From the sequence record PZ445489.1: a stretch of DNA of 64,000 bases. One strand, 5' to 3'. Of the stretch, positions 4,465 to 41,635 are shown piece after piece. The position numbers were made by a program, and so were the translations under genes. The notes beneath the pieces are model-generated. The model saw nothing but the letters and a program-made list of their open reading frames with translations, made no database searches and was not told the origin of the DNA. The first letter of the stretch is position 1. Every line of letters begins with the position of its first letter. This DNA comes from a phage.

Positions 4465-6339
4465 TTACTTAGCTCGAATATCCTGATGCTTCACTCTACC
4501 CATCACCTCGTGCTGTTTGCCAGGGTTAAATGGACGAGCACCCGGATTTCCAAGATACCCACAAACTCGACGAGTTACTTCAAGAGTTTCGGGGTCATGA
4601 TTACCACAGATAGGACACTTAAACCCATCTTCGGATGCTATTGTTTCACCTAAGAATCCGCATTTACCGCAAGAATCCACTGGAGTATTAATACCGAAGT
4701 AATGAACTTTACTAGCAGCATAATTAATAACCCATTCCAGTGCATCTGGGAATCGTTTCATATCCGGTAGTTCTACATAGGAAATGCACCCACCAGAAGC
4801 AATAGGCGTAAAGTTAGATTCATAATCAAATTTCACGTTAGGAGCAACTTTACGCTCTACATCAAGGTGGTGCGAGTTAGTGTAGTATCCTTTAGACAGA
4901 ATATCTTCATGCTCTGGGAAATATTCACGGTCTAAACGGCAAAACCTATCACATAGGGACTCTGACGGTGTAGCATACAGGCTATAACCTAACTTAGTCT
5001 CTTCCTTCTTCTGATCGACTCTATCTCGCATGTACTGCAATACACGCTGAACAAACTTGATGCAGGTCTCTGACATTGTGTCTACATCTTTGCCAAACAT
5101 GAACTGTAGCATTTCATGGCAACCAATATACCCTAGAGATACAGAAGCACGGTTATAGAAATGATCGAATACATATTCATCAGGCTCCAAGCGTAACCCA
5201 AAGGCTCCTGACATATAGAGGATGGGTGCAGCTTTAGCTTGGATGTATTTTAAGCGATCAACTCTCCACTCCAATGCTTTTAACGCTGTATCCACACGTA
5301 GCTCAAGCAAATCAAAGAATAGATCAATATTTCCTTCAGCTTCGATAGCAATTCTAGGCAAGTTTACAGAAACAACACCTAAGTTATTACGGCCAGCAGT
5401 TTCACCATCTTCTGCAGCAGCTAGGAATGAACGGCAGCCCATAGAAACTTTATAGTCTCCAGTAACTTCTACAACCTTGTCATAGCTGATATAATCTGGA
5501 TACATACGTTCAGCAGTACATTTCATAGCTAACTTCTTGATGTCATAATTAACATCTCCTGGTTTCATATTTACGCCATCGCGAAGTACAAATACCAGTT
5601 TCGGGAAGATAGCTGTACGTTTATTGATACCTAAACCATCCATGCGTACTTTCAGTATTGCTTTCTGTACTAGACGTGCTTCCCAGGAAGTTCCTAGACC
5701 AAAACCAAAGGTAATAAATGGACTCTGACCATTAGAGTTGAACATGGTATTGATTTCATATTCTAAACCCTGACAAGCGTCATAGACTTCTTTTTCAGTC
5801 ATCTCCGTAGCCATTACTGATGCTTTGGCTTCATCCTTAGTCCAACGTTTTGCAAACGCATGATTTTTGTCATAGGATTTACGAACATAAGGGGCTAATA
5901 CTTCATCAAGGCGATCTACAGAAGTACCACCGTACTGATGGGAGCTAACCTGAGTGATAATCTGAGCAGTAATAGCCGCCGCAGTAGTGATAGAGTTTGG
6001 AGTGCTAATTTCAGCATTACCAACCTTCATACCATTCTTCAACATATCTTCCAAAGCTACCAGACAACAGTTAGTCATGCCTAATGCAGCATAATCAGCA
6101 TCGTGGAAATGAATATCCCCAATCATATGAGCATTTCGAATCTGAATAGGCATTTCTTCTAGAATTAGATACTTACTCAATTCACCTGCAAGCATATCCC
6201 TTTGTGTAGGGAAACGTTCTGAGGGTTTATTGGCATTATTAAACAGCAGCTCTTCATCTGCTGACCCTTCGATAATCTCTTTGCAGTTTCTAATTAACGC
6301 CTGCATTTCTTTATACTTTAGTTCTTCATTACGATTCAT
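4465..6339 (-). CDS. nrdD: anaerobic ribonucleoside-triphosphate reductase (class III)
   Basis: 624 aa; C-terminal glycyl-radical motif RVCGYLG and Zn-ribbon CGKCG..CPICG. Confidence 0.9.
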   Translation of the reverse strand: MNRNEELKYKEMQALIRNCKEIIEGSADEELLFNNANKPSERFPTQRDMLAGELSKYLILEEMPIQIRNAHMIGDIHFHDADYAALGMTNCCLVALEDMLKNGMKVGNAEISTPNSITTAAAITAQIITQVSSHQYGGTSVDRLDEVLAPYVRKSYDKNHAFAKRWTKDEAKASVMATEMTEKEVYDACQGLEYEINTMFNSNGQSPFITFGFGLGTSWEARLVQKAILKVRMDGLGINKRTAIFPKLVFVLRDGVNMKPGDVNYDIKKLAMKCTAERMYPDYISYDKVVEVTGDYKVSMGCRSFLAAAEDGETAGRNNLGVVSVNLPRIAIEAEGNIDLFFDLLELRVDTALKALEWRVDRLKYIQAKAAPILYMSGAFGLRLEPDEYVFDHFYNRASVSLGYIGCHEMLQFMFGKDVDTMSETCIKFVQRVLQYMRDRVDQKKEETKLGYSLYATPSESLCDRFCRLDREYFPEHEDILSKGYYTNSHHLDVERKVAPNVKFDYESNFTPIASGGCISYVELPDMKRFPDALEWVINYAASKVHYFGINTPVDSCGKCGFLGETIASEDGFKCPICGNHDPETLEVTRRVCGYLGNPGARPFNPGKQHEVMGRVKHQDIRAK

Positions 6340-18585: not shown

Positions 18586-18756
18586 ATGAAATCAGTTGTA
18601 ATTATTGGTGTTAACACTCGCGGTATTCGTACTACGAAAATTGTTAAAACTTCTAACGTTGCTGAGATCACTACGAACCCTAAAAAGTTTGATTTCGCCA
18701 AAGTCTCAGCAGTTATGACAGAACAATCTTTTAACCAAGCGTTAGGAATGAAATAA
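18586..18756 (+). CDS. hypothetical protein (56 aa)
   Basis: Small ORF with GAGAGGAAG RBS after promoter; below ORF-track cutoff. Confidence 0.4.
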   Translation: MKSVVIIGVNTRGIRTTKIVKTSNVAEITTNPKKFDFAKVSAVMTEQSFNQALGMK

Positions 18757-19199
18757 TGGAAGAGAATATTTTAGATGTTTTGCGTAGAGCTTTGCAGGAT
18801 TCTAAGTTTAATGGTTCTGATAAAGAAGTCGCTAAAAGCTATCAGACCATAATCGGGGATCTTCAGCGTATTAATAAAGATTTCATCACTTCTGAACAAT
18901 TTGTGTCTTATCTCAAAGCTCAACTAAAAAGCATTAACCAGATGAAAGCTAAACTTCATGGTCAAGATCTTGATAGTTATAGCTTGCAGTCCGCTCAGTA
19001 TGAGTACATTCTAAATAAGTGGTTGCAGGAGTATCTGCCCCCTCAGTTATCTGATACTGAGATTCGTAAATACTTTGCAGAATTAGTTAAGCTAAACCCT
19101 GGAATTACAAAAGGTATGCTGATGAAAGCGATTAAGGAAGAATTTCCTGGGCGTTATGATGGTGGTACTGCTGCTCAGATTGCTGGTGAATTTAATTAA
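18756..19199 (+). CDS. GatB/YqeY-domain protein
   Basis: C-terminal EIRKYFAELVKLNPGITKGMLMKAIKEEFPGRYDG resembles YqeY domain. Confidence 0.5.
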   Translation: MEENILDVLRRALQDSKFNGSDKEVAKSYQTIIGDLQRINKDFITSEQFVSYLKAQLKSINQMKAKLHGQDLDSYSLQSAQYEYILNKWLQEYLPPQLSDTEIRKYFAELVKLNPGITKGMLMKAIKEEFPGRYDGGTAAQIAGEFN

Positions 19200-19254
19200 A
19201 AATTTATTTGCTAAATGCTTATAAATTCTGTATAATATATTCATAAATTAGAGA
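19196..19254 (+). promoter_or_regulatory. T5-type early promoter
   Basis: TTGCTA 19208-19213, 17-nt spacer, TATAAT 19231-19236. Confidence 0.65.
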
Positions 19255-19255
19255 A

Positions 19256-20048
19256 CAGCGAGCCGATTACGCTGAACTTGTCTTAATGTAAGATGCGTCG
19301 AGCACTAAGATTCGTTGAATAGAGTCGGTAGGTTAGTTGTAAAACTAGTACACAGGGGGCGGCAATCCCGGTTAGTGGCTAGAACGTGTAAAATGAGGCG
19401 TCTGAAACCTCTCCCCTAAACTCTTCTCTAATTTATAAATAGTGGGGTGTGGAAATCACTTATGTAGTAACACTGCCGTCCTAGTATAATTGGTATTATC
19501 AAGCCGTAACTGGTGGAAGATATAGATTCGAATCCTACGGTCGGTAAGAACTGGATAACTGATGCTTTTAACGTAAAAGCTTCCGAGGTTAGTTGCGCAC
19601 TGCCTAAACCACGCGGTAGTTGGTTCCAGGCTAACCAACCAGTCTGCTGAATAGTTTTATTACGATTTAACTATGTCCAGGCTAAAGAAGAACTTTAGAA
19701 GGTATTCTAGGATAGTGAAGTTTTTTCTCCATATCGGAGTAGTTTTTCAAGCTATCCACAAAGTGGGAAATGCTGACATGAGAGATGTCACTAATGGTGC
19801 ACAATAGCACAGGTAATTCGCGATAACTCCTGTTGAGTAGCAGCAAAAGGCGGGAAGTCATGACCCCAAGCCTAACCGAGTCCTCAATATACCGCAGGAC
19901 ATAACCACTAAGTCACCCTGACTTAAACTGGAAAATAATAGACGTTACTGTATTTTGTCTTGAAATACTTAATGAGTGAGACTTATGACTCTCCCGGTAT
20001 CGTCTGTATTTTTAAGAGTTTTTACGAGAGTTCTTAAAAATATTTAAA
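19256..20048 (+). ncRNA. promoter-driven ORF-free structured region (function unknown)
   Basis: About 790 nt with no ORF over 10 codons with RBS on + strand; hairpins and a T-loop-like GATTCGAATCC; precedes tRNA-Arg. Confidence 0.3.
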
Positions 20049-20123
20049 CGGGGTGTAGTCTAAGGGAGAGGCAGGAGTCTTCTAAATTCCTTTATGCAGG
20101 TTCGAATCCTGTCACCTCGGCCA
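20049..20123 (+). tRNA. tRNA-Arg (anticodon TCT)
   Basis: Hand-folded cloverleaf: acceptor cggggtg/cacctcg, anticodon loop CTTCTAA, T-loop TTCGAAT, encoded CCA. Confidence 0.7.
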
Positions 20124-20157
20124 ATTTTATTAACTGTAACTAAAACAAAGGAAATAT

Positions 20158-21105
20158 ATGTTTAATACTAAAAATATGAAAGAACTGACTTCTGAGCAGA
20201 AAGTAATTCGTACTATTAAACGTTGGGGTATTGGTGCTGTAGTTGGTTTAGCAGGCTTGATTCTAGCCTTTAATTCATATACTATTGTTTCTGATGGTAC
20301 GGTTAAAACCCAAACATTTCTGGGTAAAGTAGATCCTAACCCAGTATTACCAGGTTTCCATCTTGTAAACCCATTTGCATCTTTCGACACTTTTAGTACA
20401 AAAGATATTGCTGTAAAATTAGATAAACTTCAGGTTCCTAGCCAGGATAAGTTTAAATCCACTGTTGACCTGACTGTTATGTTGCAGTTTGATGGTTCTA
20501 AGGCACCAATTAACCGTATTAACGCAGGTACTCAGGATCAAGCGTTAGACAAATATGTAACTGAAAAATTACTGTCTACTATTCGTGAGTTTGGTAAGTC
20601 TGTACCTAAAGCACAAGATTTGTTTGATGCTAAAATTCAGGCTCAATTGCAAACTGCAATTCAACAGGAAGTTGAAGAGTATGCACGCCCATATGGTTAC
20701 ACAGTTAAGCAGGTATTCCTTCAGGATATTACTTTGCCACCGGTAATCATGGAACAGGTACAGAATACCAAAGTTCGTGAAGAACAGGTTAATGCTGCTA
20801 AAGCTGAATTAGCTCGTGTTGAACAGGAAGCACAGCAAAAAGTTAAACAAGCAGAAGCAGATCGTGAAGCTCGCAACAACCAAGCTATCGCTAATGAACG
20901 TGACGCAGATGCTAAACTGTACGCAGCTAAGAAAGAAGCTGAAGCTAACGCCGCACTGCAACGTACCATTACTCCTGAGATGATTCGTTGGAAACAACTG
21001 GAAGTCGAAATGATTCGTGCTCAGAAATATCAAGGTGGTGTACCACAGACTGTGGTAGGTACTGGCTACGATGGTCAAATGATCATGGATATGCGTAATA
21101 AATAA
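20158..21105 (+). CDS. SPFH/band-7 (prohibitin/HflC-like) membrane protein
   Basis: N-terminal TM helix then SPFH-like region and Ala/Gln/Glu-rich coiled coil. Confidence 0.7.
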   Translation: MFNTKNMKELTSEQKVIRTIKRWGIGAVVGLAGLILAFNSYTIVSDGTVKTQTFLGKVDPNPVLPGFHLVNPFASFDTFSTKDIAVKLDKLQVPSQDKFKSTVDLTVMLQFDGSKAPINRINAGTQDQALDKYVTEKLLSTIREFGKSVPKAQDLFDAKIQAQLQTAIQQEVEEYARPYGYTVKQVFLQDITLPPVIMEQVQNTKVREEQVNAAKAELARVEQEAQQKVKQAEADREARNNQAIANERDADAKLYAAKKEAEANAALQRTITPEMIRWKQLEVEMIRAQKYQGGVPQTVVGTGYDGQMIMDMRNK

Positions 21106-21127
21106 TATCCGCATGTAACATCTGAAG

Positions 21128-21170
21128 TAAGCCCTGCGTTCCCTGGAGAGCGCAGGGCTTTTCTTTTATC
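21128..21170. terminator. rho-independent terminator
   Basis: agccctgcg..cgcagggct stem followed by TTTTCTTTT. Confidence 0.6.
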
Positions 21171-23751: not shown

Positions 23752-23829
23752 GGTTCTCAAGCTCATATGGTATGAGCACCCGGCTCATAACCGGAAGGTA
23801 CGTAGGTTCGAATCCTCGGGGAGCCACCA
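23752..23829 (+). tRNA. tRNA with anticodon CAT (Met, fMet or Ile2 undetermined)
   Basis: Acceptor ggttctc/gggagcc (2 G-U), anticodon loop CTCATAA, T-loop TTCGAAT, CCA; T-stem has 2 mismatches. Confidence 0.55.
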
Positions 23830-26154: not shown

Positions 26155-26256
26155 AATTCTGTGTAGAGTTAAGTAAACCGGTAGCCAACCAGCTATCATT
26201 GCTGACATCGAATTCAGCCACAGATACCATTTTCATTAATAACTGAGGAAACAAGC

Positions 26257-26902: not shown

Positions 26903-27024
26903 CAAAATCTCAGTGCAGAACACGGAGCTAGCAATTCGGAAGTGCTGACTCATGATAAGCTGCCTATGTACTTGCGAAGCGGTCGTGTCCAAGACTCGGA
27001 CTCTTGCACTGAAAACAATCAAAC

Positions 27025-27145
27025 ATTCTAGCGTGGTTGATGGGGAAACCAGCTTGGCTAGGGCAGAAGCTCGTTCGATTCGAGTGAAAGAATGGTTCTC
27101 GTAAGTCCGCACAAGTGATAGCAGGTTCGAGTCCTGTCTAGAATG
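27025..27145 (+). ncRNA. tRNA-like RNA with about 50-nt internal expansion (about 121 nt)
   Basis: Perfect 7-bp acceptor pairing attctag/ctagaat 113 nt apart, canonical T-arm gcagg-TTCGAGT-cctgt, D-arm-like hairpin; no normal anticodon arm. Confidence 0.35.
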
Positions 27146-27334
27146 ACATATTCTGGAGGTTTTGTGAATTACAAAGAATTAGATCTTTTAGCAAATAAAT
27201 TCACAGAGCTATCTGATAACGTTGTATCAAAGGACTCCAACATAGATAATTTTATTACTGAATATCGTGATGGTATAATCTCTAAACAAGAGTTGTTAGA
27301 TAAAACGTATAAATATTTAAAGGGGTTCAGCTAA
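27143..27334 (+). CDS. hypothetical protein (63 aa)
   Basis: ORF; start overlaps end of tRNA-like element; weak RBS. Confidence 0.35.
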   Translation: MTYSGGFVNYKELDLLANKFTELSDNVVSKDSNIDNFITEYRDGIISKQELLDKTYKYLKGFS

Positions 27335-27631
27335 ACGGTTAAGCACTGTCCTACTTCGGACAGAGGGAGTAACACGTAGTCTCCCAAACTCCCCCAAATT
27401 TAGATTTCTGCTTCCTAGAGAACGGACTTCTGAATAAACAAGGCGATGAAGTTTCCGGCCGGTTCTAGTCGCTAAAGTCCCTCTAACGGGGCGTAAGTAA
27501 ATGAAAGTTTACTTATTATGTAGGTTCCGATAGATCGGCGGGTCTATTCTGGCATTTAAGAGAGGTCTCGCAAACTTCTTTGTCAGCCGTGGGGTTGGTA
27601 GCCTCCAGGTGGCCTACACAATAAGTAAATT

Positions 27632-28803: not shown

Positions 28804-29124
28804 GAAAATAGCTGCCTAGATACCAGGTGTATGACGTCTACACTAGCAGAGCTACCGAAAAAGAGATCCTCAGGATAAACGTCGTAGCAAAATTAGTCTG
28901 GTATCCATCAATTTAGTTCACTAAGGTATTAGCTCGACCTAGGACTGGCTGCCAAAAAGCACGATCCCTACAATTCGGGAGAAGTTCTAGATTAGTCCAC
29001 TAGATTCAGCGGCAACTGAATAGTGTATCGGGTTTGCGAGATGACGCAGTTCCTTCCGCTCGAAGCGAAGGTGCTGTAGTTACGCCGAGCTAATAGCCTT
29101 AGTAAACTTACAGGGGTTAACGCA

Positions 29125-30151: not shown

Positions 30152-30520
30152 AAAATTCTTGAAGTATGCCGGAATCGGTAGACGGGGCTGCCTAAAAGGT
30201 TTATAGGGAACATCCACTCCCTGCAACATACCTCATAAAGCGGCTGAGATAAATGGTCTATCTCGTGAAGGTTCAAGTCCTTCTGCTTCTTGATACATCT
30301 ATGGCTCAAAGTGTAACGGTGCTATTTGATGCTCTTGGTAAGACTTCCCCGACATGCGTTCGGGAGTAAGCTGCTAAGACTAGAGTAGAAGAGTTTCTGA
30401 GAGCCGCCACAATTGAAAATTCGTACTCGTCTTGAGCTGCGTGCAATAGGAGATAACTTGATTAGTATTCTAGAACATGCTAATTGAGGAAGGTTTCGCT
30501 AACCCTGCGAGTTTTCAATT

Positions 30521-30966: not shown

Positions 30967-30974
30967 AACAATAA

Positions 30975-31050
30975 GCGGTTAAGCACACGGGTTGTGTCGC
31001 AGGCCTTCCAAGCCTCGCTGAGTAGGGTTCGATTCCCTCTAGCCGCTCCA
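30975..31050 (+). tRNA. tRNA-Gly (anticodon TCC)
   Basis: Acceptor gcggtta/tagccgc, anticodon loop CTTCCAA, T-loop TTCGATT, CCA. Confidence 0.6.
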
Positions 31051-40415: not shown

Positions 40416-40847
40416 ATGTCTGATCGTTTCTACACTCAAATGGCGGAACATTTTCGTATACCACATTACGAGCTAAACATTGCACTCCGCGATCATGACT
40501 CTCCTGAGTACAAAAAGCTCGAAAAGAAAGCGGAAAAATCTATTGATACAAAGGTAGGTGCATCTATGTCTAAGGGCAAAAAGTTAACTCGTCTTGATCT
40601 TAATAAAATTTTAACTGAACTTTTGGGTACTGATATTGAGGGTGCTAAATTACCGCTTCTTGTACTAGAGACTATGATTAAAAAGGTCAAAAATAAAGAA
40701 TATAAGAAGGTAGAAGTCCCAGAAGGCAGATTAAAGGCTCCTTATCAGGAAGCATTAACCGAGTGTTTGGGTGTAAATCTTGATCTGAGCACCGCAACCG
40801 TAAAAACTATGAAAAACTTCTTAGAGGCCATTAATAACTATGAGTAA
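40416..40847 (+). CDS. hypothetical protein (143 aa)
   Basis: ORF with GAGAGG RBS. Confidence 0.5.
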   Translation: MSDRFYTQMAEHFRIPHYELNIALRDHDSPEYKKLEKKAEKSIDTKVGASMSKGKKLTRLDLNKILTELLGTDIEGAKLPLLVLETMIKKVKNKEYKKVEVPEGRLKAPYQEALTECLGVNLDLSTATVKTMKNFLEAINNYE

Positions 40848-41257: not shown

Positions 41258-41635
41258 ATGAACTATGCATATCTAATTATTAATAATAACGTAGTTTGTG
41301 GTACTCGCGCTGTTGAGATGGGTATTACAGAAGAAAAGTATAAGTCACTTCCAGAAAAGGAACAACAATATTATGTTGAAGAAGCTGCTTGGGAGTATGC
41401 TGAGGTTTATCCCGAAGAACGTGAAGATTGTCTTACTCTTGTTGTGTCTCTGGGTTTGGTTGGCTGTGATACCGAAGTTGATACAGACCTAGAGACTTTA
41501 GAGGAGTGGGAAGAGTTAGATATTTCAGCTAAAAACTCCTTAATCCGTGAAGCCTTTTGGGAAGCTGTAGATTGCCACGTAGTATTTGAACCTAATGATG
41601 AAGAGGCTGAAAAACATACTAACCATTGGGGATAA
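41258..41635 (+). CDS. acidic protein (125 aa)
   Basis: ORF; Glu/Asp-rich. Confidence 0.45.
   Translation: MNYAYLIINNNVVCGTRAVEMGITEEKYKSLPEKEQQYYVEEAAWEYAEVYPEEREDCLTLVVSLGLVGCDTEVDTDLETLEEWEELDISAKNSLIREAFWEAVDCHVVFEPNDEEAEKHTNHWG

What the first reader, a model, noticed from the sequence alone, without database searches (positions are those of the whole stretch)
19256..20048. About 790-nt promoter-driven ORF-free region before an isolated tRNA-Arg
A strong T5-type promoter (19196-19254) is followed by about 790 nt with no plausible ORF on the + strand, then tRNA-Arg(TCT). The stretch contains several hairpins, including a T-loop-like GATTCGAATCC enclosed by a ccgta/tacgg stem. It may encode stable RNA(s) or a processed leader. 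A group I intron is not supported (see rejected list).
Basis: seen in the sequence. Interest (0 to 1): 0.5.

Follow-up and report, generated by a model that had tools for sequence, protein, structure and literature searches.

The report
T5-type phage stable RNA "RNAX"
The ORF-free 800 bases before tRNA-Arg are the gene for a large, heavily folded non-coding RNA. A 2004 GenBank record of a sister phage already labels it "RNAX, stable RNA with unknown functions", and it is conserved across T5-like phages, but it is in no RNA family database and its job is unknown.

Summary
A T5 early-type promoter (-35 at 19208, -10 at 19231-19236) is followed by about 800 nt with no conserved ORF, then tRNA-Arg(TCT) at 20049-20123.

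The window is a Tequintavirus, 99.8% identical to Escherichia phage SP15. The stretch is 98.8% identical to misc_RNA rnaX ("RNAX, stable RNA with unknown functions") in GenBank AJ604531.1, Salmonella phage 5. The feature is therefore already on record, but I found no paper on it and it matches no Rfam 15 family.

New here:
- RNAX is a mosaic of separately folding modules: a 5' domain closed by a 13-bp helix, a tRNA-like cloverleaf without a normal anticodon loop, several hairpins, a multi-helix junction, a 3' three-way junction, and a hairpin abutting tRNA-Arg.
- Compensatory base changes support these folds, well above shuffled and slid controls.
- G.U pairs outnumber A.C about 10:1, so the folded molecule is the + strand RNA.
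- Sequence conservation equals that of the flanking genes.
- The layout recurs in Epseptimavirus, Klebsiella Sugarland-like phages and Pectobacterium DU_PP_V.

Function is inferred only. I favour a co-transcribed precursor cut by tRNA-processing enzymes into stable trans-acting RNA(s). This would resemble GOLLD/ROOL RNAs, which also sit near phage tRNA islands, but RNAX fails their models.

The parts
19189..19249 (+). Early sigma-70 promoter: -35 TTGCTA at 19208-19213, -10 TATAAT at 19231-19236, with an A/T-rich upstream part. Homologue of phage 5 'promoter P16-17'.
   Evidence: Consensus scan. Member of an 8-9 copy promoter repeat family (D2/D3). 93% identical to the annotated P16-17.
19249..20048 (+). 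The whole RNAX gene, a non-coding RNA of about 800 nt, as delimited by homology to misc_RNA rnaX of AJ604531.1.
   Evidence: 98.8% over 734 nt plus the 5' 27 nt. No conserved ORF. No Rfam family.
19243..19436 (+). Module M1, a 5' domain closed by a 13-bp helix: AUAAAUUAGAGAA (19243-19255) pairs with UUCUCUAAUUUAU (19424-19436). It contains the hairpin CAGCG..CGCUG. The interior is missing in T5, which keeps the closing helix.
   Evidence: Inverted repeat found by BLAST. Present in the minimum-energy fold. T5 and other lineages compared; CAGCG/CGCUG becomes CAGCA/UGCUG in DU_PP_V and Proteus.
19475..19547 (+). tRNA-like element with acceptor, D and T arms. The 'anticodon' arm is a short stem with no canonical 7-nt loop, and no CCA is encoded. 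In this window the T stem carries two G>A changes (19522, 19526) that make A.C mismatches.
   Evidence: Rfam tRNA 22.3 bits, below the gathering score of 29. Relaxed ARAGORN on relatives. Cloverleaf covariation. Comparison with SP15.
19441..19474 (+). Conserved 5' flank of the tRNA-like element (UAGUGGGGUGUGGAAAUCACUUAUGUAGUAACAC). It is retained even in lineages that lack the tRNA-like element.
   Evidence: Alignment; BLAST blocks.
19548..19612 (+). Conserved 3' flank AAGAACUGGAUAACUGAU, then two covarying hairpins: GCUUUU..AAAAGC (19564-19580) and AGGUUAGU..ACUGCCU (19586-19605), then AAACCAC.
   Evidence: Variants read by eye: GCUUC/GAAGC, GCUUAU/AUAAGC and GGUUC/GAACC for the first hairpin; GGCAGU/ACUGCC and GACAGU/ACUGUC for the second.
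19685..19757 (+). Module K, a small multi-hairpin unit: UAGAA..UUCUA, CUCC..GGAG, and GAAGAAC paired with GUUUUUC. It is present in Tequintavirus, phage 26175II and Klebsiella Sealy. Most Epseptimaviruses carry a different module in its place.
   Evidence: UAGAA/UUCUA versus UAGGC/GCCUA; BLAST block 19684-19756, 85% identical to Sealy.
19763..19908 (+). M4 5' domain, a multi-helix junction closed by GUGG (19763-19766) with CCAC (19905-19908). It holds four hairpins. hpA is 19775-19789. hpB is 19809-19833, with conserved loop UAAUUCGCGAUAACU. hpC is 19848-19873, whose loop carries the invariant palindrome GUCAUGAC at 19857-19864. hpD is 19880-19900.
   Evidence: RNAalifold. Pair counts: 95.8% of cells paired, 18 pairs with changes on both sides, and hpD covaries at 5 of 5 pairs.
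19910..19933 (+). Near-invariant hairpin AAGUCA-CCC-UGACUU followed by UAAACUGGAA. Within RNAX relatives only the loop (CCC/CCU) and the outermost pair (A-U to U-A in Sealy/SEL21) vary; DU_PP_V has a variant with a 7-nt loop. The 20-nt core also occurs in unrelated phage contigs.
   Evidence: outer pair A-U becomes U-A in Sealy/SEL21. Collection scans.
19938..20007 (+). M4 3' three-way junction. The closing helix AUAGACG (19938-19944) pairs with CGUCUGU (20001-20007). Inside are hp1 GUAUUU/AAAUAC (19950-19968), the junction sequence CUUAAU (19968-19973) and hp2 GAGA/UCUC (19978-19993).
   Evidence: Covariance model R1 finds this copy, which was not in the seed, at 84 bits. Pair counts: the closing helix covaries at 6 of 10 pairs, and hp2 varies AGGG/CCCU, GAAGG/CCUUC, AGGGG/CCCCU, GGAG/CUCC.
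20011..20038 (+). 3' hairpin UUUAAGAGU / loop UUUUACGAGA / GUUCUUAAA, 10 nt upstream of tRNA-Arg. A version of it also precedes tRNA-Arg in a FelixO1-like phage.
   Evidence: 99% paired; the only variation is G.U to A-U or C-G changes on one side. JohannRWettstein.
20049..20123 (+). tRNA-Arg(UCU) with encoded CCA, co-transcribed immediately downstream of RNAX.
20158..21160 (+). The rest of the transcription unit: the SPFH/band-7 gene ('ORF trn 1.1', 20158-21105) and an intrinsic terminator (21129-21160).
   Evidence: ORF; terminator; no intervening + strand promoter; annotation ter1.

Best explanation
The region is the gene for RNAX, a non-coding RNA of about 800 nt.

Proposed mechanism:
1. 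Host sigma-70 RNA polymerase starts at early promoter P16-17 and reads through RNAX, tRNA-Arg(UCU) and the SPFH/band-7 gene to terminator ter1.
2. The RNAX part folds into a chain of independently folding modules. In order, these are: a 5' domain closed by pairing of the transcript's first 13 nt; a tRNA-like cloverleaf lacking a real anticodon loop; hairpins; a multi-helix junction with conserved loops; a three-way junction; and a hairpin abutting the tRNA.
3. RNase P must cut at the 5' end of tRNA-Arg and probably also at the tRNA-like element (acceptor plus T arm is its minimal substrate). This would free one or more stable structured RNAs, above all the roughly 290-nt conserved 3' part (M4).
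4. These RNAs then act in trans as a folded scaffold or decoy for a protein or RNA partner.

What is shown: it is non-coding, structure is under selection on the + strand, and it is modular and conserved across Demerecviridae. The single transcription unit is predicted only, from consensus promoter and terminator scans. What is inferred: processing, stability (taken from the GenBank annotation) and trans action. The partner and the biological role are unknown. The setting beside the phage tRNA island, and the known use of T5 tRNAs against tRNA-targeting defences, make translation or anti-defence the likeliest arena.
For: Identity:
- 98.8% identical to annotated misc_RNA rnaX 'stable RNA with unknown functions' of AJ604531.1, in the same position between P16-17 and tRNA-Arg.

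Non-coding:
- Every ORF is disrupted in relatives.

Structure:
- M4 alignment of 15 phages: 95.8% of cells paired versus 35-46% when partners are slid. 18 pairs changed on both sides versus 8.2+-1.9 in shuffles (0 of 500 as high) and 2-5 when slid.
- A covariance model of the 3' domain, built without Tequintavirus sequences, recovers the window copy at 84 bits and DU_PP_V at 50 bits. It gives no hit at E<=1 in 70 unrelated viral contigs.
- The model-based alignment is 93.3% paired, with 10 double-change pairs versus 5.1+-1.1.
- tRNA-like cloverleaf: 7 double-change pairs versus 2.2+-1.1.

Strand:
- G.U versus A.C cells are 89:8, 91:7 and 26:4 in the three alignments.

Selection and spread:
- Identity to Epseptimavirus is 81-88% for M2 and the M4 5' domain, the same as flanking genes at 85-89%.
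- Matches in 540 phage records.
- The same layout is present in Sugarland-like, phiR2-01 and DU_PP_V phages.

Transcription unit:
- One + strand promoter and one + strand terminator are predicted.

Other:
- No similarity to E. coli genomes or plasmids.
Against: - No expression, end-mapping or stability data were available here. 'Stable RNA' is a depositor's annotation with no paper found.
- Folding energy is not better than shuffles (z = -1.2).
- Modules are dispensable in some lineages. M1's interior is absent from T5 and the tRNA-like element is absent from PSa2, SH9 and L029.
- This window's own tRNA-like T stem is damaged.
- The sequences are phylogenetically related (effective number 1.24 in the model seed), so shuffle controls overstate significance.
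- Several helices are invariant and therefore untested.
Confidence: 0.75

Rival explanations
1. RNAX works only in cis. It would be a long structured 5' leader that controls the yield, timing or processing of tRNA-Arg and/or the downstream SPFH mRNA, for example by guiding RNase E or RNase P or by protecting the transcript. It would be degraded after cleavage rather than acting as a stable RNA.
For: It is physically the 5' part of the tRNA-Arg/SPFH transcription unit, with no internal promoter or terminator predicted. The 3' hairpin directly before tRNA-Arg is the most widely conserved piece and travels with tRNA-Arg even into a FelixO1-like phage.
Against: 800 nt of multi-domain structure with many invariant loops is far more than known tRNA leaders need. 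In relatives, homing-endonuclease ORFs or other genes separate RNAX modules from tRNA-Arg by 500 nt or more, yet the modules stay conserved (S147, L029, L030, Sealy). The depositors annotated it as a stable RNA.
Confidence: 0.15
2. The region is evolutionary debris. It would consist of decayed tRNA genes and remnants of homing-endonuclease insertions in a recombination hot spot, transcribed but without function.
For: It contains a degenerate tRNA, called a pseudogene in T5 and DU_PP_V records. The region is mosaic, with indels and HNH endonuclease genes inserted in relatives. The window's tRNA-like T stem carries disabling changes.
Against: Conservation equals that of neighbouring coding genes. 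Compensatory changes maintain helices across genera and subfamilies. No part resembles a coding remnant, since no ORF is conserved in any frame. Only one tRNA-like unit is detectable.
Confidence: 0.05
3. The conserved inverted repeats act at the DNA level. The palindrome GTCATGAC and the repeat AGTCAnnnTGACT would be protein-binding, nicking, replication or homing-endonuclease sites rather than parts of an RNA.
For: Two of the most invariant elements are DNA palindromes or inverted repeats. The T5 tRNA region is rich in site-specific HNH endonucleases. A major T5 nick is annotated about 1 kb downstream.
Against: Strong strand asymmetry, with G.U pairs about 10-fold more frequent than A.C, and covariation that keeps pairing while changing sequence. 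Both fit a + strand RNA and do not fit duplex DNA sites. The motif always has the orientation of the flanking genes in unrelated contigs. This rival could still be true for the two invariant motifs alone.
Confidence: 0.05

Closest known systems
RNAX (gene rnaX) of Salmonella phage 5, GenBank AJ604531.1 'Bacteriophage 5 tRNA gene region'
   Same: Orthologue. 98.8% identical over 734 nt plus the 5' end, in the same place between promoter P16-17 and tRNA-Arg(AGA), followed by ORF trn 1.1 and ter1.
   Different: The window copy is 15 nt longer (800 versus 785 nt) because of an indel near 19276-19314. The record gives only 'stable RNA with unknown functions', with no structure, family or function.
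Pseudo-tRNA / 'tRNA-OTHER' annotated in T5 (AY587007), NBEco001, Baret, DU_PP_V; 'tRNA-Sec(TCA)' in Epseptimavirus records
   Same: It is the same element as window 19475-19547.
   Different: Those annotations treat it as an isolated, broken or odd tRNA. Here it is one module inside a longer conserved RNA. Its acceptor, D and T arms are kept by compensatory change, while the anticodon arm is not tRNA-like. T5's annotation is displaced by 68 nt.
GOLLD and ROOL large ornate RNAs (Rfam RF01998, RF03087; PMC12286853)
   Same: They are phage-encoded, sit next to tRNA islands, span hundreds of nt (many GOLLD members exceed 800 nt) and have many helices and unknown function. [quoted passage not shown] RNAX has a conserved 3' domain, a mosaic 5' part and an internal tRNA-like unit.
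   Different: No match to either Rfam model at E<=10 in the window or E<=1 in eight related or motif-bearing loci. Those RNAs come mainly from Firmicutes, Actinobacteria and metagenomes, not enterobacterial T5-like phages. Oligomerisation of RNAX is untested. RNAX modules are gained and lost between lineages, which argues against one rigid fold.
Small stable RNAs of phage tRNA clusters: T5/phage 5 RNA I, RNA III, RNA IV, RNA 2H and tRNA-like RNA1-3; T4 species 1 and 2 RNAs (the T4 RNAs from my own knowledge)
   Same: They are non-coding RNAs embedded in a phage tRNA gene region, co-transcribed with tRNAs and of unknown function. Homologues of all seven phage 5 RNAs are present in this window.
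   Different: Those are 70-170 nt, whereas RNAX is about 800 nt and multi-domain. BLAST finds no similarity between RNAX and the rest of the window.
tRNA-like processing or mimicry modules (for example MALAT1 mascRNA, bacterial YrlA Y-RNA-like RNAs; from my own knowledge)
   Same: An acceptor/T-arm mimic sits inside a longer non-coding RNA, with the anticodon arm replaced.
   Different: There is no sequence or Rfam relationship. No Rsr/Ro gene was looked for. Processing at the RNAX tRNA-like unit is only inferred.

Membership tests
RNAX (AJ604531.1 misc_RNA rnaX) | Sequence homology over the full annotated span | tested here: met
   98.8% over 734 nt plus 96% over the first 27 nt; maps to window 19249-20048.
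RNAX (AJ604531.1 misc_RNA rnaX) | Position: directly after early promoter P16-17 and directly before tRNA-Arg(AGA), followed by ORF trn 1.1 and ter1 | tested here: met
RNAX (AJ604531.1 misc_RNA rnaX) | Accumulates as a stable RNA in infected cells | not testable with these tools
   This is the depositors' annotation only; no paper was found.
tRNA (Rfam RF00005) for the element at 19475-19547 | Score at or above the family's gathering threshold (29 bits) | tested here: not met
   22.3 bits in the window. Default ARAGORN does not call it. The DU_PP_V copy reaches 38.3 bits.
tRNA (Rfam RF00005) for the element at 19475-19547 | Acceptor, D and T arms maintained | tested here: met
   84% of cells paired and 7 pairs with compensatory change. 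The T stem varies GUAGG/CCUAC, GCAGG/CCUGC, GUGGG/CCCAC. In this window the T stem has two A.C mismatches.
tRNA (Rfam RF00005) for the element at 19475-19547 | 5-bp anticodon stem with a 7-nt loop (U33, purine 37), a consistent anticodon, and a 3' CCA | tested here: not met
   The stem has 3-4 pairs and the loop is non-canonical. The 'anticodon' reads ACT, TCA or CGA depending on lineage. In Sealy the arm is a long insertion and in DU_PP_V a 3-5 nt loop. The 3' flank is AAGA, not CCA, whereas the window's tRNA repeat families (16 copies) show encoded CCA.
GOLLD (RF01998) / ROOL (RF03087) | Match to the family covariance model | tested here: not met
   No hit at E<=10 in 19190-20130 or at E<=1 in 8 related or motif-bearing loci.
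GOLLD (RF01998) / ROOL (RF03087) | Phage-encoded large (over 500 nt) multi-helix RNA beside tRNA genes | tested here: met
   The description of the families comes from PMC12286853.
GOLLD (RF01998) / ROOL (RF03087) | Homo-oligomeric RNA-only assembly | not testable with these tools
   The only lead is an invariant self-complementary loop, GUCAUGAC at 19857-19864.
Group I intron (RF00028) | Match to the covariance model (P3-P9 core) | tested here: not met
   No hit at E<=10. The same search method did find an intron in unrelated locus L274.
Type III antitoxin RNA (ToxI-like) | Tandem array of direct repeats of about 36-45 nt | tested here: not met
   No direct-repeat family falls inside 19249-20048. 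Tandem 41-nt units are seen only in the unrelated contigs L036 and L053.
Protein-coding small ORF | An ORF kept open in relatives, with excess third-position substitutions | tested here: not met

The most novel reading that the evidence does not exclude
RNAX, or at least its roughly 290-nt conserved 3' part (19759-20043), may be the founding member of a new class of large ornate phage RNA. It would be functionally parallel to GOLLD/ROOL. It sits at the head of the tRNA island and carries a tRNA mimic. It would act as a folded RNA machine, possibly self-associating through the invariant palindromic loop GUCAUGAC, that handles tRNAs or translation factors or blunts tRNA-directed host defences. 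Its 20-nt hairpin-plus-UAAACUGG core may mark a wider family of small RNAs scattered through unrelated phage genomes.
Probability: 0.2. Interest if true: 0.8.

Novelty: already known. Interest (0 to 1): 0.55.

Why it matters
T5 is a classic model phage, and its tRNA region has recently been shown to counter host defences. PMC11464382 shows a T5 tRNA-Lys neutralising PARIS, and PMC10644984 cites T5 tRNA-Tyr rescuing a retron's toxicity.

An 800-nt RNA at the head of that region is as conserved as the genes around it and folds into at least ten covarying helices. Yet it has no Rfam family, no published structure and no known role, and most genome records leave it blank or fill it with spurious 'hypothetical proteins'.

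Recognising it would have three benefits:
- It would correct those annotations.
- It would give a ready covariance model for T5-like phages.
- It would offer a genetically tractable E. coli system for asking what large structured phage RNAs next to tRNA islands actually do. That question is still open for GOLLD and ROOL.

Tried and rejected
- Group I intron, tmRNA, RNase P RNA, 6S, GOLLD, ROOL, HEARO, riboswitches and ribozymes. Rfam gave nothing for the window or for eight related or motif-bearing loci beyond tRNA hits.
- Small proteins. No ORF is conserved.
- Host-derived or antisense-to-host sequence. There is no match in 5,426 E. coli genomes or in PLSDB plasmids.
- Paralogy with the other stable RNAs of the window. 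None was found.
- Thermodynamic stability as evidence. z = -1.2 on both strands, so it is uninformative.
- Pistol, hammerhead or N4-type promoter hairpin readings of the AGUCA-CCC-UGACU motif. These were considered from memory; none fits the conserved residues and none is supported by Rfam.
- Wasted effort. A mis-specified test alignment. An A/T-rich 15-mer scan of viral contigs that returned mostly chance hits. Retrieval of loci through the SleB-like hydrolase, which brought mostly unrelated phages; these were later useful only as a negative set for the covariance model.
- Literature searches for RNAX or for a T5 transcriptome found nothing relevant.
Full report
**What the window is.** The 1,011 bases around the finding are 99.8% identical to Escherichia phage SP15 and at least 93% identical to about 200 Tequintavirus (T5-like) genomes. 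The finding lies between a YqeY/GatB-domain gene (18756-19199; named from relatives' annotation) and tRNA-Arg(TCT) at 20049-20123. That tRNA is the first tRNA of a 12-kb island holding 23 tRNAs.

**Checking the observation.**
- A sigma-70 promoter, TTGCTA-17-TATAAT, lies at 19208-19236. It is one of 8-9 copies of a roughly 60-nt early-promoter repeat in this part of the genome.
- At other copies of the repeat the promoter is followed by a ribosome-binding site and an ATG. Here it is followed by about 800 nt whose longest + strand ORFs are 34-45 aa and longest - strand ORFs 59-60 aa.
- I aligned each ORF to its counterpart in up to 16 relatives. Every one is broken by frameshifting indels, stops or loss of the start codon. 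The breaks occur in relatives ranging from about 63% to 98% identity, and substitutions show no third-position excess.
- The T-loop-like GATTCGAATCC is real.
- No + strand terminator or further + strand promoter is predicted before the terminator at 21129-21160, downstream of the SPFH/band-7 gene.

**It already has a name.** A BLAST of 19755-20048 against GenBank phage records hit AJ604531.1, 'Bacteriophage 5 tRNA gene region' (Salmonella phage 5, a Tequintavirus). The matching stretch is annotated there as misc_RNA, gene rnaX, product 'RNAX', note 'stable RNA with unknown functions'.
- The feature runs from the end of 'promoter P16-17' to the base before tRNA-Arg, and maps to window 19249-20048 at 98.8% identity.
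- The same record annotates seven other non-tRNA RNAs in the tRNA region: RNA I, III, IV, 2H and tRNA-like RNA1-3. All have homologues in this window.
- T5's own record marks only a pseudo-tRNA inside the region. Most modern records leave it blank, call a 'tRNA-OTHER', or place short hypothetical proteins on it.
- I found no paper describing RNAX or a T5 transcriptome in the library.
- Rfam 15 has no family for it. At E<=10 the only hits are tRNA-Arg and a sub-threshold tRNA match at 19475-19546, scoring 22.3 bits against a gathering score of 29.

**Anatomy: a mosaic of modules.** Pairwise comparison with 30 or more relatives shows sharply bounded blocks that are present, absent or replaced independently.
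- M1 (19243-19436) is closed by a 13-bp helix between the first bases of the transcript (AUAAAUUAGAGAA) and UUCUCUAAUUUAU at 19424-19436. T5 and several others lack the interior of M1 but keep both strands of this helix as a simple hairpin.
- M2 is the tRNA-like element with strongly conserved flanks.
- Next come two hairpins (19564-19580 and 19586-19605) whose stems differ between lineages but stay paired.
- A 'K' module (19685-19757) is shared with phage 26175II and Klebsiella phage Sealy. Most Epseptimaviruses have a different module there, and Sealy has both.
- M4 (19759-20043) is the most widely conserved part.
- In several relatives, homing-endonuclease or other ORFs sit between modules.

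**The tRNA-like element.** With relaxed settings ARAGORN calls it tRNA-Ser(ACT) in most Tequintaviruses, tRNA-SeC(TCA) in some Epseptimaviruses and tRNA-Ser(CGA) in phiR2-01. It has no consistent anticodon.
- On an alignment of 12 phages from four groups, the acceptor, D and T stems are 84% paired. Seven pairs changed on both sides, against 2.2+-1.1 in shuffles and 0-3 when the partners are slid.
- A U.U mismatch in the acceptor stem is kept in 10 of 12 sequences, including DU_PP_V.
- The anticodon arm is a 3-4 bp stem with a non-canonical loop in Tequintavirus, a long insertion in Sealy and a 3-5 nt loop in DU_PP_V.
- No CCA is encoded, although the window's tRNA repeat families show encoded CCA.
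- The element is missing from PSa2, SH9 and L029.
- In this window two G>A changes put A.C mismatches in the T stem. A19526 is not shared even with SP15.
- I therefore read it as a tRNA-shaped module, not a decoding tRNA. It fails the tRNA membership test on anticodon arm, CCA and score.

**M4: structure under selection.** An alignment of 15 Tequintavirus and Epseptimavirus sequences folded with RNAalifold gives ten helices.
- They include a long-range GUGG/CCAC helix closing a junction of four hairpins, a near-invariant hairpin AAGUCA-CCY-UGACUU followed by UAAACUGGAA, and a 3' hairpin.
- Of 60 pairs, 95.8% of cells are standard pairs, against 35-46% with slid partners. 18 pairs show changes on both sides, against 8.2+-1.9 in shuffles (0 of 500 as high) and 2-5 when slid.
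- Examples: hpA GACAU/AUGUC becomes GGCAU/AUGCC, CACAU/AUGUG, or UCACG/CGUGA in T5. hpD GUCCU/AGGAC becomes GUUCU/AGAAC or GCACU/AGUGU. hpB ACAGG/CCUGU becomes CUAGGAAG/CUUCCUAG, while its loop (UAAUUCGCGAUAACU in the window) stays largely conserved.
- The 3' three-way junction has entirely different sequences in Tequintavirus, Epseptimavirus, ph2-3/Sealy, phiR2-01 and DU_PP_V but the same shape.
- I built a covariance model from ten non-Tequintavirus sequences. It finds the window copy at 84 bits (E about 1e-15) and Pectobacterium DU_PP_V, from a different subfamily, at 50 bits. It gives no hit at E<=1 in 70 unrelated viral contigs.
- On the model-based alignment of 20 sequences, 93.3% of cells pair. 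10 of 32 pairs changed on both sides, against 5.1+-1.1 in shuffles and 0-4 when slid. The junction's closing helix covaries at 6 of 10 pairs.

**Strand and level of selection.** In the three alignments G.U cells outnumber A.C cells 89:8, 91:7 and 26:4. Pairing drops by 9-14 points if the same helices are read on the opposite strand. The folded molecule is therefore a + strand RNA, not duplex DNA or an antisense transcript. Identity between the window and Epseptimaviruses is 81-88% for M2 and the 5' half of M4, the same as the flanking protein genes at 85-89%.

**Caveats.**
- Folding energy alone is unremarkable (z = -1.2).
- The sequences are related, so the shuffle control is generous.
- Several helices never vary and are therefore untested.

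**Distribution.** BLAST finds parts of the region in 540 phage records.
- The promoter - long non-coding stretch with a central tRNA-like unit - tRNA-Arg layout is present in Tequintavirus, Epseptimavirus, Yersinia phiR2-01, Klebsiella Sugarland-like phages, Pectobacterium DU_PP_V and, more loosely, Proteus Novosibvirus.
- Vibrio phage Bennett lacks it.
- A FelixO1-like coliphage shares only the 3' hairpin plus tRNA-Arg.
- Nothing similar exists in E. coli genomes or plasmids.

**How it most likely works.** Established points are that the region is non-coding, that its structure is selected on the + strand, that it is modular, and that it is deeply conserved. That it forms one transcription unit with tRNA-Arg and the SPFH gene is predicted from consensus scans.

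The following is inferred.
- RNase P must cut at position 20049 to make tRNA-Arg. That cut necessarily detaches RNAX from the rest of the transcript.
- The tRNA-like unit presents the acceptor/T-arm stack that RNase P recognises (established enzymology, from my own knowledge), so a second cut at 19475 is plausible.
- The products, especially the roughly 500-nt 3' piece carrying M4, would be the 'stable RNA'.
- Many invariant loop sequences point to contacts with a partner or to tertiary structure. These include AGUGGGAAA, AAUGGUGC, UUCGCGAUAAC, GGGAGUCAUGACC, AUAACCAC, UAAACUGGAA, CUUAAU and UUUUACGAGA.
- I cannot name the partner.

The rivals are weaker but not excluded: a purely cis-acting leader (0.15), decayed tRNA and endonuclease debris (0.05), and DNA-level sites (0.05).

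**Comparison with known systems.** RNAX is the orthologue of the annotated RNAX of phage 5, so I rate it 'already known'. In kind it resembles the small stable RNAs of phage tRNA clusters, but it is five to ten times larger.

Its closest functional analogues are GOLLD and ROOL. According to PMC12286853 these are large ornate RNAs of phages and prophages, 'often near tRNA islands'. [quoted passage not shown] RNAX shares all of these contextual traits but fails the defining test, a match to their covariance models. Its lineage-specific gain and loss of modules also argues against a single rigid architecture.

The invariant self-complementary loop GUCAUGAC is a lead for RNA-RNA association, nothing more.

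**A side observation on the 20-nt core.** The sequence GUCACCYUGACNUAAACUGG occurs exactly in non-T5 viral and metagenomic contigs of 32-57% G+C. In most of the clearer cases it sits just after an ORF's stop codon, in the orientation of the flanking genes.
- In one group (L264, L273, L274 with two copies, L281, L285) it is followed by a hairpin whose stem covaries. In L274 and L281 a terminator follows.
- In L038 it heads about 540 nt of non-coding sequence that ends at a tRNA.
- Only 2 hits occur in 596 Gb of bacterial genomes. By my estimate that is no more than chance would give.
- Some metagenome hits are also chance: L268 is eukaryotic rDNA.
- No Rfam family covers these.
- This may be a wider phage RNA motif. 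I did not model it.

**Verdict.** It is already named in one GenBank record but is otherwise uncharacterised. It is more interesting than its 'already known' label suggests, because the structure, family breadth and modularity shown here are not documented anywhere I could find. I give it moderate interest (0.55).

Noticed in passing
window 26157-26229, 27024-27148, 27520-27620, 28927-29098, 30158-30302, 30303-30409, 30414-30519: These are homologues (93-100% identical) of the seven other non-tRNA RNAs annotated in phage 5 record AJ604531.1: RNA3, RNA2, RNA IV, RNA 2H, RNA1, RNA I and RNA III. Those are labelled 'stable' or 'tRNA-like RNA with unknown functions'. None has an Rfam family apart from weak tRNA-model hits (for example 30160-30291 at 25 bits).
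   Followed up: partly
L036 and L053 (around 5185), L038/L265, L056/L280, L059/L269, L264, L273, L274 (4892 and 5033), L281, L285: The exact 20-nt core of the RNAX hairpin (GTCACCYTGACNTAAACTGG) occurs in unrelated phage and metagenome contigs of very different G+C. In most of the clearer cases it lies just after an ORF's stop codon, in the orientation of the flanking genes. In one group a covarying hairpin follows, and a terminator in L274/L281. Bacterial genomes give only 2 hits, which I estimate to be no more than chance. No Rfam family covers it.
   Followed up: partly
L036 about 5020-5140 (the same sequence occurs in L053): Three tandem degenerate units of about 41 nt (GTGGCGATTTGGCCACCGTCnnCnnGACGTTAACTGG) lie directly upstream of the canonical motif in a GC-rich viral contig. 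The arrangement recalls type III antitoxin (ToxI-like) repeat arrays.
   Followed up: no
L003 (T5, AY587007) 1733-1965: T5 carries the hairpin-plus-UAAACUGGAA motif twice, flanking an 87-nt insertion that itself forms a long hairpin. The covariance model scores both copies (37.7 and 64.5 bits). Metagenome contig L270 has the same duplication.
   Followed up: partly
L003 (AY587007.1 record 40626-40700 and 41285-41356): The T5 record's coordinates for tRNA-Arg and the pseudo-tRNA are displaced by 68 nt from where the sequences actually lie. BLAST places tRNA-Arg at locus 1970-2044 against the annotated 2038-2112, so the annotated tRNA overlaps the next CDS.
   Followed up: partly
L005 1229-1726 and 2314-2823; L174 699-1181; hit H55 (phage MSP1): In several relatives, ORFs sit between RNAX modules or between RNAX and tRNA-Arg. 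Those in phage 2-3 and MSP1 are annotated as HNH/homing endonucleases, while S147's two (orf80, orf81) are annotated only as hypothetical proteins. Module boundaries appear to be insertion points.
   Followed up: no
L257 (Escherichia phage JohannRWettstein, Felixounavirus) about 2000-2116: A FelixO1-like phage has a hairpin with the same stem design and a similar loop (CUUUAAGGGC..UUUCUAAGAGA..GUCUUUAAAG) directly before a tRNA-Arg(AGA) that is 80% identical. This suggests exchange of a hairpin-plus-tRNA cassette between phage families.
   Followed up: partly
window 19522 and 19526: Two G>A differences from the family consensus create A.C mismatches in the T stem of the tRNA-like element. A19526 is absent even from SP15, which otherwise differs from the window at only one other base in 1,011. 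It could be a real disabling mutation or a sequencing error.
   Followed up: partly
window 23752-23826 and 30974-31047: Rfam finds tRNA-like matches that ARAGORN did not call: tRNA at 40.3 bits (above the gathering score) and a tRNA-Sec-like match at 30.9 bits. They correspond in position to phage 5's tRNA-Ile2 and tRNA-Gly.
   Followed up: no
window 18756-19199: The gene immediately upstream of the RNAX promoter is annotated in relatives as a YqeY/GatB-domain protein ('tRNA amidotransferase'). As I recall, this domain type is thought to bind tRNA. It is syntenic with RNAX in Markadamsvirinae but absent in the Klebsiella Sugarland-like phages.
   Followed up: no
L274 845-1321: A group I intron (Rfam 72.6 bits) with an adjacent HNH endonuclease ORF lies just upstream of, and overlapping the start of, a thymidylate synthase ORF in a metagenomic phage contig that also carries two copies of the 20-nt motif.
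   Followed up: no
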